Shown here: one piece after another, positions 24,291 through 24,672 of the stretch
Position numbering within the stretch: position 1 is the first letter of the stretch
Layout of the letters: each line of letters starts with the position of its first letter
IMG/VR virus record: IMGVR_UViG_2529292853_000006
DNA: 47,785 nt
Reading direction: 5' to 3' (one strand)
DNA from: a virus
Lineage: Duplodnaviria; Heunggongvirae; Uroviricota; Caudoviricetes
The notes under the pieces: generated by a model
Seen by the model: only the letters and a program-made list of their open reading frames with translations
Databases searched by the model: none
Told to the model about the DNA's origin: nothing
Made by a program: the position numbers and the translations under genes

Positions 24291-24323
24291 TCAAAAACAC
24301 GCATTTATAATGCATGTTTTTGA
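24291..24323 (+). promoter_or_regulatory. 33-bp palindromic operator overlapping a TATAAT -10 (NsrR/Rrf2-type candidate)
   Basis: TCAAAAACA cgcatt TATAAT gcatg TGTTTTTGA; perfect 9-bp outer arms; ATGCAT-type inner half-sites; directly upstream of the YeaR-like gene. Confidence 0.45.
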
Positions 24324-24333
24324 TGAGGTGGTT

Positions 24334-24672
24334 ATGACACACAAGAGAATTCCTAAAGATTGGGTAATCAAACGCTCAACTCCGTTCTTCACAAAAGAGA
24401 ACGTACCTTCAGCGTTATTAACACATCATAATACAGCAGCAGGTGTTTTTGGGCAGTTGTGCGTAATGGAAGGCACTGTAACATATTATGGTTTTACTGA
24501 TGAGAATGCTACTGAACCGGAGATAAAAGTAGTCATTAATGCTGGCGCTTTTGCAACAAGCCCACCACAATACTGGCACCGTGTTGAACTAAGCGATGAT
24601 GCTCAGTTTAATATTAACTTTTGGGTCGCTCCAGACTTCTCGGGCGAAAAAGTCTATAGCACCAAAAAATAG
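24334..24672 (+). CDS. YeaR-like DUF1971 protein
   Basis: Start at the internal ATG with GAGGTGG SD; similarity to E. coli YeaR as recalled (RSTPF, CVMEGTV.YYGF.DE, INAGAFA.SPP, FNI.FWVAPD). Confidence 0.75.
   Translation: MTHKRIPKDWVIKRSTPFFTKENVPSALLTHHNTAAGVFGQLCVMEGTVTYYGFTDENATEPEIKVVINAGAFATSPPQYWHRVELSDDAQFNINFWVAPDFSGEKVYSTKK

What the first reader, a model, noticed from the sequence alone, without database searches (positions are those of the whole stretch)
24291..24334. YeaR-like cargo gene has a 33-bp palindromic operator centred on its -10
Directly upstream of the YeaR-like start is TCAAAAACA cgcatt TATAAT gcatg TGTTTTTGA, with perfect 9-bp outer arms and ATGCAT-type inner half-sites resembling the NsrR (Rrf2-family) operator as I recall it. 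In E. coli K-12 the yeaR-yoaG operon is in the NsrR/NarL regulon. This suggests the prophage carries a nitrosative-stress-responsive gene wired into a host regulon. The palindrome contains the ORF-track ATG at 24310, so the real start is probably the downstream ATG at 24334 with its GAGGTGG SD.
Basis: partly seen in the sequence, partly recalled or inferred. Interest (0 to 1): 0.4.

Follow-up and report, generated by a model that had tools for sequence, protein, structure and literature searches.

The report
NsrR operator on a prophage DUF1971 gene
A small gene carried by an E. coli Rac-type prophage has, across its promoter, a near-perfect palindrome that matches the binding site of the host's nitric-oxide-sensing repressor NsrR; related genes in other gut bacteria were already linked to NsrR, so this is a correct but fairly ordinary find.

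Summary
The palindrome is real and longer than reported. It has 17-nt arms (24289-24305 and 24309-24325, 16/17 complementary) and is unique in the window.

Its inner 23 bp (24296-24318, AACACGCATTT-A-TAATGCATGTT) is a good NsrR 11-1-11 site. It scores 19-20 bits with a matrix from published E. coli CFT073 sites and 21.6 bits with an independent matrix. The next best scores in the window are 11.8 and 10.3.

The gene (24334-24672) is a DUF1971 protein. It is 79% identical to the Salmonella protein that I take to be STM1808, and only 41% identical to K-12 YeaR.

Nearly every Enterobacteriaceae orthologue recovered carries a 20-31-bit NsrR box 27-39 bp before its ATG, with a -35 hexamer 11-12 nt upstream of the box. 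Rodionov 2005 predicted this link, and later papers cite Karlinsey 2012 for STM1808 being NsrR-regulated.

What is new is the setting. The gene is a self-contained moron (promoter, operator, gene, terminator) in Rac-type prophages of about 9% of complete E. coli genomes, and in three sequenced phages.

No NarL, FNR, CRP or Fur site was found. Which hexamer is the -10 is unresolved.

One oddity remains. The palindrome is a diversity hot spot, with compensatory changes in arms outside the NsrR box.

The parts
24279..24284 (+). -35 hexamer TTGACA
   Evidence: It is invariant in all E. coli and phage alleles. It ends 11 nt before the NsrR box. The orthologues have TTTACA or TTGACC at the same 11-nt distance, and Citrobacter has TTGCCT at 12 nt.
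24289..24325 (.). 37-bp near-perfect palindrome (17-nt arms, 3-nt centre TAT, axis at 24307)
   Evidence: Found. It is unique in the window, with 0.001-0.01 expected by chance. The outer arms (24289-24295 and 24319-24325) lie outside the NsrR 23-mer and show compensatory changes between alleles.
24296..24318 (.). NsrR-type 11-1-11 operator AACACGCATTT-A-TAATGCATGTT
   Evidence: It scores 19.1-20.0 bits with a matrix built from Table 4 of PMC5320621, and the next best in the window is 11.8. It scores 21.6 bits with a matrix of 24 independent enterobacterial sites, next best 10.3. P per position is 4e-7 to 4e-6 even at 30% GC. A box is conserved upstream of the orthologues.
24302..24307 (+). candidate -10 (a): CATTTA, 17 bp after TTGACA; it occupies the position of the orthologues' TATTTT/CATATT/TATATT
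   Evidence: Shown by the sequences anchored on the box. It lacks the final T. Alleles d, e and f have CATTTT here. This is an inference; no transcription start data were available.
24306..24311 (+). candidate -10 (b): consensus TATAAT, but 21 bp from TTGACA and with a poor -35 (CATAAC) at 17 bp
   Evidence: Read from the sequence. It is not conserved in all alleles; it reads TTTAAT in alleles d, e and f. The promoter scan called neither candidate.
24325..24331 (+). Shine-Dalgarno GAGGTGG
   Evidence: It lies 2 nt before the ATG at 24334, or 5 nt counted from the GAGG core. It is invariant in the nine sequences of alignment A2, which was not anchored on it.
24334..24672 (+). DUF1971 protein, 112 aa, of the type I take to be STM1808 ('tehB^'; a stand-alone TehB N-terminal-like domain)
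   Evidence: Pfam PF09313, E = 2.3e-26. It is 79% identical to Salmonella DUF1971 and 75-82% to Kluyvera, Klebsiella and Vibrio proteins, but 41% to K-12 YeaR. PDB relatives are 3dl3 (3.5e-59), 3bb6 YeaR and 3m70. RefSeq uses the same start.
24702..24738 (+). intrinsic-terminator-like hairpin AGACCCG...CGGGTCT followed by CATTTTT
   Evidence: RNA fold. It closes the one-gene unit. It is present in most alleles of the module.

Best explanation
The palindrome is the operator of the host repressor NsrR, an NO-sensing Rrf2-family iron-sulfur protein. It lies across the -10 region and transcription start of the promoter of a one-gene moron in a Rac-type prophage.

Without nitrosative stress, holo-NsrR would sit on 24296-24318 and keep RNA polymerase off the promoter (TTGACA at 24279, then either -10 candidate). 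NO damages the NsrR cluster, the repressor leaves, and the 112-aa DUF1971 protein is made from a very short leader, with the SD at 24325 and the ATG at 24334.

The gene appears to have been captured from an enterobacterial chromosome (Kluyvera/Leclercia-like) together with its -35, its NsrR box and its SD. It therefore arrived already wired to a regulator that every E. coli host has.

What is shown: the palindrome, the motif match, the conservation of box and geometry across genera, the family identity, and the prophage/moron context. What is inferred: NsrR binding, repression, NO induction, and the protective role of the protein. The last rests on Salmonella STM1808 as reported in the literature.
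For: - The palindrome is real and unique in the window.
- The matrix from Table 4 of PMC5320621 gives 19.1 bits against 11.8 for the next best site in 47.8 kb. That ranks about 8th of 26 against leave-one-out scores: above hmp (16.4) and near ygbA (20.1) and yeaR (21.3).
- P per position is 9e-8 with uniform composition and 3.9e-6 at 30% GC, so 0.003 such sites are expected in the 804-bp intergenic region.
- An independent matrix from 24 non-tehB enterobacterial sites (Rodionov 2005) gives 21.6 bits, within the training range of 17.8-30.6, with 10.3 for the next best.
- In 492 kb of related loci, 52 of the 58 hits at or above the candidate's score lie just upstream of a DUF1971 orthologue. One more is the K-12 yeaR site, which is a training site. 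The other five are in two NO-gene clusters.
- Every enterobacterial orthologue except Leclercia L011 (12 bits) has a 20-31-bit box centred 27-39 bp before the ATG. A -35 hexamer sits 11-12 nt before the box, as in the window.
- All 10 alleles seen in 53 E. coli, phage and metagenome loci keep a 17.6-28.9-bit box despite local hypervariability.
- Literature: NsrR sites upstream of STM1808 ('tehB^') and of the Klebsiella and Yersinia homologues were predicted in 2005. STM1808 is cited as NsrR-regulated and virulence-related. In Vibrio the gene sits in the NO-responsive norVW operon, and this was confirmed for A. fischeri.
- Prophage context. Terminator.
Against: - There is no experimental binding or expression data for this locus.
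- The left half-site (AACACGCATTT) departs from the consensus AAGATGCATTT at two positions. The window allele is therefore among the weakest of the family (20 bits, against about 30 in most orthologues).
- The promoter scan did not call a promoter here, and the -10 and the transcription start are unassigned.
- The dyad symmetry runs 7 bp beyond the NsrR motif on each side, which an NsrR dimer does not obviously need.
- In CFT073, ChIP-seq missed some genuine NsrR sites such as yeaR and ygbA, so motif and occupancy do not always agree.
Confidence: 0.82

Rival explanations
1. The full 37-bp palindrome, not just the NsrR 23-mer, is the functional unit. It would act as a DNA cruciform or hairpin, or as an RNA stem in read-through transcripts whose left arm (CCTCC/CATC) pairs with sequence next to the Shine-Dalgarno. 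It would add a structural layer of control on top of, or instead of, NsrR.
For: - The arms extend 7 bp beyond the NsrR motif on each side.
- Among 10 alleles, the outer-arm pairs change in a compensatory way: CCTC..GAGG, then CCTC..GATG (an intermediate that is observed), then CATC..GATG; and CCTCC..GGAGG versus CCCCC..GGGGG.
- Nucleotide diversity is 0.14-0.19 inside the palindrome and at most 0.016 in the unconstrained flanks.
- Citrobacter, Yokenella and Raoultella planticola orthologues have 7-8 of 8 complementary flanks with different sequences.
- The most symmetric alleles fold at -18 to -19 kcal/mol as single-stranded DNA.
Against: - Two common allele classes, including the three sequenced phages, have poor outer-arm pairing and fold at only -6.5 and -2.3 kcal/mol.
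- Most genera (Kluyvera, Klebsiella, Leclercia and others) show only chance-level flank complementarity.
- With either -10 candidate, the transcription start falls inside the right arm, so the mRNA would not contain the stem.
- No U-tract follows the stem on either strand.
- Concerted change of the two arms is also what template switching at quasi-palindromes produces without any selection. That mechanism is known in E. coli from my own knowledge; I did not test it here.
Confidence: 0.12
2. The palindrome is the operator of a different dimeric regulator: a phage-encoded one, the LysR protein of the neighbouring island, or NarL, FNR or Fur as at other nitrogen-oxide promoters. On this reading the resemblance to NsrR sites is coincidental.
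For: Long AT-rich palindromes over promoters are generic operators. K-12 yeaR is co-regulated by NarL. Orthologues in the Kluyvera group carry a Fur-box-like element near the -35.
Against: - There is no NarL 7-2-7 site at 10/14 or better, although the same scan recovers the K-12 yeaR site. There is also no FNR, CRP or Fur match above background in 24100-24340.
- The same operator occurs in prophages that lack the LysR island and upstream of chromosomal orthologues in many genera that have no prophage.
- Two NsrR matrices single the site out.
Confidence: 0.04
3. The palindrome is a chance feature of an AT-rich intergenic region, or a transcription terminator for neighbouring transcripts, with no operator role.
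For: The intergenic region is 30% GC, and AT-rich DNA yields many weak palindromes and -10-like hexamers. The promoter scan found no more promoter-like sites than in shuffles.
Against: The expected number of such palindromes is 0.001-0.01 per window. The motif P-value remains about 4e-6 or lower at 30% GC. The box is conserved at a fixed distance from the -35 and the ATG across genera whose flanking sequence is unrelated. No T-run follows the stem on either strand.
Confidence: 0.02

Closest known systems
Salmonella enterica STM1808 ('tehB^') and its NsrR site
   Same: It is the same protein family, on my assignment of the Salmonella hit to STM1808: the Salmonella DUF1971 protein is 79% identical. 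It also has an NsrR-type inverted repeat just upstream of the gene; Rodionov 2005 lists GgTGtATaTTAAATaCATC at -49. STM1808 is described as an NsrR-regulon member with a role in virulence (Karlinsey 2012, as cited in PMC7527575).
   Different: STM1808 and the other enterobacterial orthologues are chromosomal. The window copy is a moron inside a Rac-type prophage and is also present in sequenced phages. The window box is weaker (20 bits against 21-31) and sits inside a longer, hypervariable palindrome. I did not verify that P0014 is STM1808 itself, and the Karlinsey paper was not available to read.
E. coli K-12 yeaR-yoaG promoter (NarL-activated, NsrR-repressed)
   Same: It also drives a DUF1971 protein, and it carries an NsrR 11-1-11 box (AAATGGTATTTAAAATGCAAATT) in its core promoter. 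It belongs to the nitrate/NO stimulon.
   Different: Protein identity is only 41%. In K-12 the box lies around -32 and overlaps the NarL 7-2-7 site TAACCAATAAATGGTA at -43.5. The window has no NarL site, its box covers the -10 and the start, and no yoaG follows the gene; a terminator does.
Canonical E. coli NsrR operators (ytfE, hmp, hcp, ygbA)
   Same: They share the 11-1-11 AT-rich inverted repeat with GCAT/ATGC cores. The window's score falls within their range.
   Different: Those genes are core chromosomal genes. In the window the dyad symmetry continues 7 bp further on each side.
Vibrio norVW(-fpr)-tehB^ operons under NorR
   Same: The DUF1971 protein is the same at 75-80% identity, and it is again tied to an NO-responsive regulator. 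The gene order norV-norW-fpr-DUF1971 was confirmed in A. fischeri ES114.
   Different: Regulation there is by the sigma-54 activator NorR at the head of an operon. The gene has no promoter or NsrR box of its own.

Membership tests
NsrR (Rrf2-family) operator / NsrR regulon | An 11-1-11 inverted repeat matching AANATGCATTT-N-AAATGCATNTT (gATGyAT-N5-ATrCATc) | tested here: met
   24296-24318 scores 19-20 bits with the CFT073 matrix and 21.6 bits with the Rodionov matrix. Both values fall within the ranges of the training sites. The next best sites in the window score 11.8 and 10.3.
NsrR (Rrf2-family) operator / NsrR regulon | The site overlaps the core promoter of the regulated gene (repressor geometry) | tested here: inconclusive
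   The box starts 11 nt after a perfect TTGACA and covers both -10 candidates. No transcription start data were available, and the promoter scan did not call the site.
NsrR (Rrf2-family) operator / NsrR regulon | The site is conserved upstream of orthologues in genomes that encode NsrR | tested here: met
   Boxes of 20-31 bits lie 27-39 bp before the ATG in about 15 enterobacterial genera, with Leclercia L011 (12 bits) the one exception. The box is kept in all 10 E. coli and phage alleles.
NsrR (Rrf2-family) operator / NsrR regulon | NsrR binds the site (EMSA, footprint or ChIP) and expression rises in a nsrR mutant or with NO | not testable with these tools
   This needs wet-lab work. Data for STM1808 exist only by citation.
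DUF1971 / STM1808-type stand-alone TehB N-terminal-like protein | Pfam PF09313 above its gathering score and high identity to members of the type I take to be STM1808 | tested here: met
   92 bits against a cut-off of 23.1. Identity is 73-82% to Salmonella, Klebsiella, Kluyvera and Vibrio members, and 58 columns are invariant. PDB 3dl3 matches at 3.5e-59.
YeaR orthologue (yeaR-yoaG operon) | Close similarity to K-12 YeaR, and a yoaG (DUF1869) gene downstream | tested here: not met
   Identity to YeaR is 41%. The gene is followed by a terminator and by no small ORF of the yoaG type. E. coli keeps yeaR-yoaG elsewhere.
NarL-activated promoter (yeaR/ogt type) | A 7-2-7 NarL heptamer pair just upstream of the -35 (about -43.5) | tested here: not met
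   No 7-2-7 match at 10/14 or better in 24100-24340, whereas the same scan finds the K-12 yeaR site.
Phage moron (autonomous cargo unit in a prophage) | Its own promoter and terminator, an insertion between phage modules, and presence in phage genomes with variable neighbours | tested here: met
   The unit lies between the replication genes and the DUF1367/DUF1364/Q genes of a Rac-type prophage at ttcA, on the opposite strand. It is present in three phage genomes and in 29 IMG/VR contigs. The downstream neighbours differ between strains. Homology boundaries are at about 24019 and about 24670-24740.

The most novel reading that the evidence does not exclude
The NsrR box sits in a longer palindrome whose outer arms co-vary between very close alleles, and the 37 bp are 10-30 times more diverse than the rest of the module. 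The most novel reading is that this is a selected, evolvable tuning device. On that reading, cruciform or hairpin formation, or arm symmetry, sets operator strength or promoter choice. The central base 24307 would toggle between TTGACA-17-CATTTT and a TATAAT promoter that lacks a usable -35. Prophage lineages would then diversify how tightly the cargo gene is held by the host NO sensor. The duller reading is that this is a passive product of quasi-palindrome template switching.
Probability: 0.12. Interest if true: 0.6.

Novelty: new member of a known kind. Interest (0 to 1): 0.3.

Why it matters
If NsrR does control this gene, about 9% of complete E. coli genomes carry a second NO-inducible DUF1971 protein that came in on a prophage. 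Its Salmonella relative is reported to contribute to nitrosative-stress resistance and virulence.

It is a clean example of lysogenic conversion in which the cargo gene arrives with an operator for a regulator the host already has. No phage regulator is needed.

It also gives a natural allelic series of NsrR operators, from 17.6 to 28.9 bits, on an otherwise nearly identical promoter. That series could be used to calibrate motif score against repression.

It does not change what is known about NsrR or about DUF1971 proteins.

Tried and rejected
- **NarL, FNR, CRP and Fur scans** of 24100-24340 found nothing above background, while the controls worked: the K-12 yeaR NarL site and the Kluyvera Fur boxes were recovered.
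- **The K-12 yeaR analogy.** I first assumed the K-12 yeaR -10 sits in the same register as TATAAT here. The NarL cryo-EM paper places the NarL site at -43.5, which puts the K-12 box near -32, so that analogy was dropped.
- **The sigma-70 scan** did not call a promoter at the site.
- **Rfam** finds nothing in 23500-25400.
- **Terminator or RNA hairpin reading:** rejected, because there is no T-run after the stem and the predicted transcription start lies inside the stem.
- **LysR neighbour as the regulator:** rejected, because the module occurs without that island.
- **Primary papers.** Karlinsey 2012 (PMC3438343) and Lin 2007 (PMC2168752) are not held, so both are cited only through papers that cite them.
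- **Literature on this locus.** Searches for 'Rac prophage' with NsrR, and for DUF1971, found nothing about it.
- **CFT073.** None of the 27 listed CFT073 NsrR motifs matches any allele of this box. CFT073 therefore probably lacks the locus, and that ChIP-seq study says nothing about it.
- **The 28-codon ORF at 23801-23887** has no NCBIfam match.

Full report
**1. The observation**

The stretch 24291-24323 reads TCAAAAACA-CGCATTTATAATGCA-TGTTTTTGA. The 9-bp outer arms are perfect complements. TATAAT is at 24306-24311. The long ORF's ATG is at 24310 (ORF 24310-24672). A second ATG at 24334 follows GAGGTGG.

The repeat finder extends the dyad to 17-nt arms, 24289-24305 and 24309-24325, with 16/17 complementary around a 3-nt centre. 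This is the only palindrome of that quality in the window, where 0.001-0.01 are expected by chance. As single-stranded DNA it folds at -12.8 kcal/mol, z = -6.

**2. Where the window comes from**

The 851 bp around the gene are 100% identical to many E. coli chromosomes. They are found in 467 of 5,426 complete genomes, and at 94% identity in three sequenced phages of the vB_EcoS-666R9 type.

In strain AMSCJX04 the region lies in a Rac-type prophage integrated next to ttcA. That prophage carries intR, xisR, recET, kilR, sieB, a DUF977 gene, and further on DUF1367/DUF1364/DUF1133(Q), lysis genes, trkG, tfaR and pinR. Rfam finds the Rac sRNA RalA in the window.

The gene lies between the replication genes and the nin/Q genes, on the opposite strand. 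What follows it differs between strains:
- an MFS/ChaC/LysR/DUF2254/BCCT island in the window;
- QueH, KilA-N plus Hok, or IS elements elsewhere.

The conserved module runs from about 24019 to about 24670-24740 and ends in a terminator-like hairpin at 24702-24738. This is the anatomy of a phage moron.

**3. The gene**

The protein from 24334-24672 is a DUF1971 protein (PF09313, 92 bits).
- Homologues all start M-[ST]-H-x-R-I-P, and RefSeq annotates the same start.
- It is 79% identical to the Salmonella DUF1971 protein and 73-82% to proteins of Kluyvera, Klebsiella, Citrobacter, Vibrio, Aliivibrio and Shewanella.
- It is only 41% identical to K-12 YeaR.
- Solved relatives are 3dl3 ('tellurite resistance protein B', 3.5e-59), 3bb6 (YeaR) and the N-terminal domain of 3m70.

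It therefore belongs to what I take to be the STM1808 subfamily, the 'tehB^' of Rodionov 2005. It is not a YeaR orthologue, and no yoaG follows it.

**4. Is the palindrome an NsrR site?**

I built a symmetric weight matrix from the 26 distinct 23-mers of Table 4 of Mehta et al. 2015 (PMC5320621).
- The inner 23 bp, AACACGCATTT-A-TAATGCATGTT (24296-24318), score 19.1 bits. The next best position in 47.8 kb scores 11.8.
- Against leave-one-out scores of the published sites this ranks about 8th of 26. It is near ygbA (20.1) and yeaR (21.3) and above hmp (16.4).
- The per-position probability is 9e-8 with uniform composition and 3.9e-6 at the local 30% GC. That gives 0.003 expected sites in the intergenic region.

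A second, independent matrix came from 24 enterobacterial hmp, ytfE, hcp, ygbA and narK sites in the supplementary NsrR-site table of Rodionov et al. 2005.
- It gives 21.6 bits, within the training range of 17.8-30.6, and 10.3 for the next best site.
- The unusual left core cAcGCAT also occurs in the Yersinia hcp sites of that table.

**5. Comparative test**

A scan of one genome per species returned 80 loci that encode close relatives.
- Every enterobacterial orthologue except Leclercia L011 (12 bits) has a 20-31-bit NsrR box centred 27-39 bp before its ATG. The genera are Kluyvera, Leclercia, Pantoea, Enterobacter, Pseudescherichia, Silvania, Buttiauxella, Citrobacter, Klebsiella, Raoultella, Salmonella, Yokenella, Phytobacter and Shigella.
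- In the 492 kb scanned, 52 of the 58 hits at or above the candidate's score are these boxes. One more is K-12 yeaR, a training site. The other five lie in two marine gammaproteobacterial loci. One of these, Neptunomonas L078, is an NO-gene cluster where an Rrf2 gene, a ytfE-like gene and the DUF1971 gene are neighbours.
- When the sequences are anchored on the box, a -35 hexamer ends 11 nt upstream (12 nt in Citrobacter): TTGACA in the window, TTTACA in the Kluyvera group, TTGACC in Klebsiella, TTGCCT in Citrobacter. The rest of the upstream sequence is unrelated.

This is a phylogenetic footprint of promoter plus operator. It also implies that the prophage copy was captured together with its regulatory region. 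The closest proteins (82%) and the same short SD-ATG leader are in the Kluyvera/Leclercia group.

Most Vibrio, Aliivibrio and Shewanella orthologues have no box within 250 bp. In A. fischeri ES114 the gene is the last of norV-norW-fpr-DUF1971. That matches Rodionov's 'norVW-fpr-tehB^' operon under the NO sensor NorR. Across gamma-proteobacteria the family is thus consistently attached to an NO-responsive regulator.

**6. What was already known**

- Rodionov et al. 2005 list NsrR sites upstream of STM1808 ('tehB^', -49), of the Klebsiella homologue (-31) and of the Yersinia, Erwinia and Photorhabdus homologues.
- Gilberthorpe et al. 2007 saw no nsrR effect, but they tested the genuine tehAB genes.
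- Later papers cite Karlinsey et al. 2012 for STM1808 being NsrR-regulated and contributing to virulence. The primary paper was not available to me.
- I found nothing in the searchable literature on the prophage-borne E. coli copy.
- None of the 27 CFT073 motif sequences matches any allele of this box, so that ChIP-seq study probably did not contain the locus.

**7.

(a) *The K-12 yeaR promoter is not a template for this one.* The NarL 7-2-7 site TAACCAATAAATGGTA is centred at -43.5. That places the K-12 NsrR box (AAATGGTATTTAAAATGCAAATT) around -32, over the -35 and the NarL site. The window has no 7-2-7 match at 10/14 or better, although the same scan recovers the K-12 site. It also has no FNR, CRP or Fur site.

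(b) *The -10 is not settled.* TATAAT (24306-24311) lies 21 bp from the perfect TTGACA and has only CATAAC at 17 bp. The hexamer that corresponds to the orthologues' -10 (TATTTT, CATATT or TATATT at box positions 7-12) is CATTTA at 24302-24307, 17 bp after TTGACA, and it lacks the final T. In alleles d, e and f the central base 24307 is T, which gives CATTTT and TTTAAT. Either way the NsrR box covers the -10 and the predicted start, so repression by occlusion holds. 'Centred on its -10' is approximate. The promoter scanner called neither arrangement.

**8. An unexplained extra**

Exact-anchor scans of IMG/VR and metagenomes added 43 loci. Together with the genome hits, 53 loci give 10 alleles of the 37-bp stretch.
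- All 10 alleles keep an NsrR box of 17.6-28.9 bits.
- The outer arms, which lie outside the NsrR 23-mer, change in a compensatory way. The series is CCTC..GAGG (13 loci), then CCTC..GATG (6 loci, an intermediate), then CATC..GATG (the window, 4 loci). There are also CCTCC..GGAGG and CCCCC..GGGGG.
- Nucleotide diversity is 0.14-0.19 inside 24289-24324, against at most 0.016 in the neighbouring unconstrained promoter and 5' coding sequence. L084 and L085 encode the identical protein but differ from the window at 7 and 10 of the 37 positions.
- Citrobacter, Yokenella and R. planticola orthologues have 7-8 of 8 complementary flanks with unrelated sequences. Most other genera are at chance level.

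Two points argue against a required structure. First, two common allele classes, including the sequenced phages, pair poorly in the outer arms and fold at only -6.5 and -2.3 kcal/mol, against -18 to -19 for the most symmetric alleles. Second, the predicted mRNA starts inside the right arm.

My preferred reading is mutational: quasi-palindrome template switching that extends and homogenises a palindrome seeded by the NsrR box. That mechanism is known in E. coli from my own knowledge and was not tested here. A selected structural or tuning role is not excluded.

**9. Verdict**

The NsrR-operator interpretation is supported by all the computational evidence available, and its family-level link was already published.

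The gene is of the type I take to be STM1808, not a YeaR orthologue, and the NarL part does not transfer. The new elements are the phage vehicle and the hypervariable extended palindrome.

The finding is a new member of a known kind and of modest interest. Binding and NO response remain to be shown experimentally.

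Noticed in passing
L005-L026 (Kluyvera, Leclercia, Pantoea, Enterobacter, Pseudescherichia, Silvania, Buttiauxella) and L057 (Photobacterium), 24-26 nt upstream of the NsrR box (15 nt in L057): The orthologous promoters in these genera carry a Fur-box-like 19-mer, for example GATAATGAGATTCATTATC. It matches the consensus at 13-17 of 19 positions, lies at a fixed distance and abuts the -35. This suggests dual Fur and NsrR control of the DUF1971 gene. The element is absent from the window (12/19, the shuffle level) and from the Klebsiella, Citrobacter and Salmonella promoters.
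   Followed up: partly
window 24289-24324, and the same stretch in L084-L132: The operator palindrome is a sharp diversity hot spot: pi is 0.14-0.19 against at most 0.016 in the flanks. There are 10 alleles, with compensatory changes in the outer arms. Strains that encode the identical protein differ at up to 10 of the 37 positions.
   Followed up: partly
window 23981-24009 (outer complementary pieces at about 23968-23974 and 24010-24016): A second AT-rich palindrome, TGTGTATATAA-TTTAT-TTATATACACA, is flanked by CCTTTAC...GTAAAGG. It lies about 300 bp upstream of the gene, exactly where homology between prophage alleles breaks, at the left boundary of the DUF1971 module. Its function is unknown.
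   Followed up: partly
window 23801-23887 (+): A 28-codon ORF with a strong SD (AAGGTGG, 6 nt before the ATG) encodes a hydrophobic peptide, MENNKFAHLAPFLSVILFACCFIWALFL. It could be a small membrane or toxin-like protein. It has no NCBIfam match.
   Followed up: partly
window 25396 to about 31650: A block of non-phage genes sits inside the prophage between the DUF1971 moron and the replication genes: an MFS transporter, a ChaC-like gamma-glutamylcyclotransferase, a LysR regulator, a DUF2254 protein and a BCCT transporter. Other prophage alleles have QueH, KilA-N plus Hok, or IS elements at this position.
   Followed up: no
window 40776-40954 (-), 21159-21345 (-), 47481-47597 (+): Rfam matches above the gathering score: RalA (the antitoxin sRNA of RalR, Rac prophage), STnc100 sRNA just downstream of the Q-like gene, and an ALIL pseudoknot, which is an IS3-family frameshift element.
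   Followed up: no
window 21984-22012, 45310-45338, 4538-4562: Three further palindromes with arms of at least 12 nt and at most 1 mismatch. The window holds far more such hits (11) than Markov-simulated sequence does (mean 0.55). The one at 21984-22012 lies just downstream of the Q-like antiterminator gene.
   Followed up: no
L078 (Neptunomonas qingdaonensis) 1966-1988 and 4069-4091; L071 2315-2361: Strong NsrR-type boxes (22-24 bits) sit between a ytfE-like gene and an Fe-S protein plus DUF1971 operon, and between an Rrf2-family gene and sufB. Here the DUF1971 gene is next to its likely regulator.
   Followed up: partly
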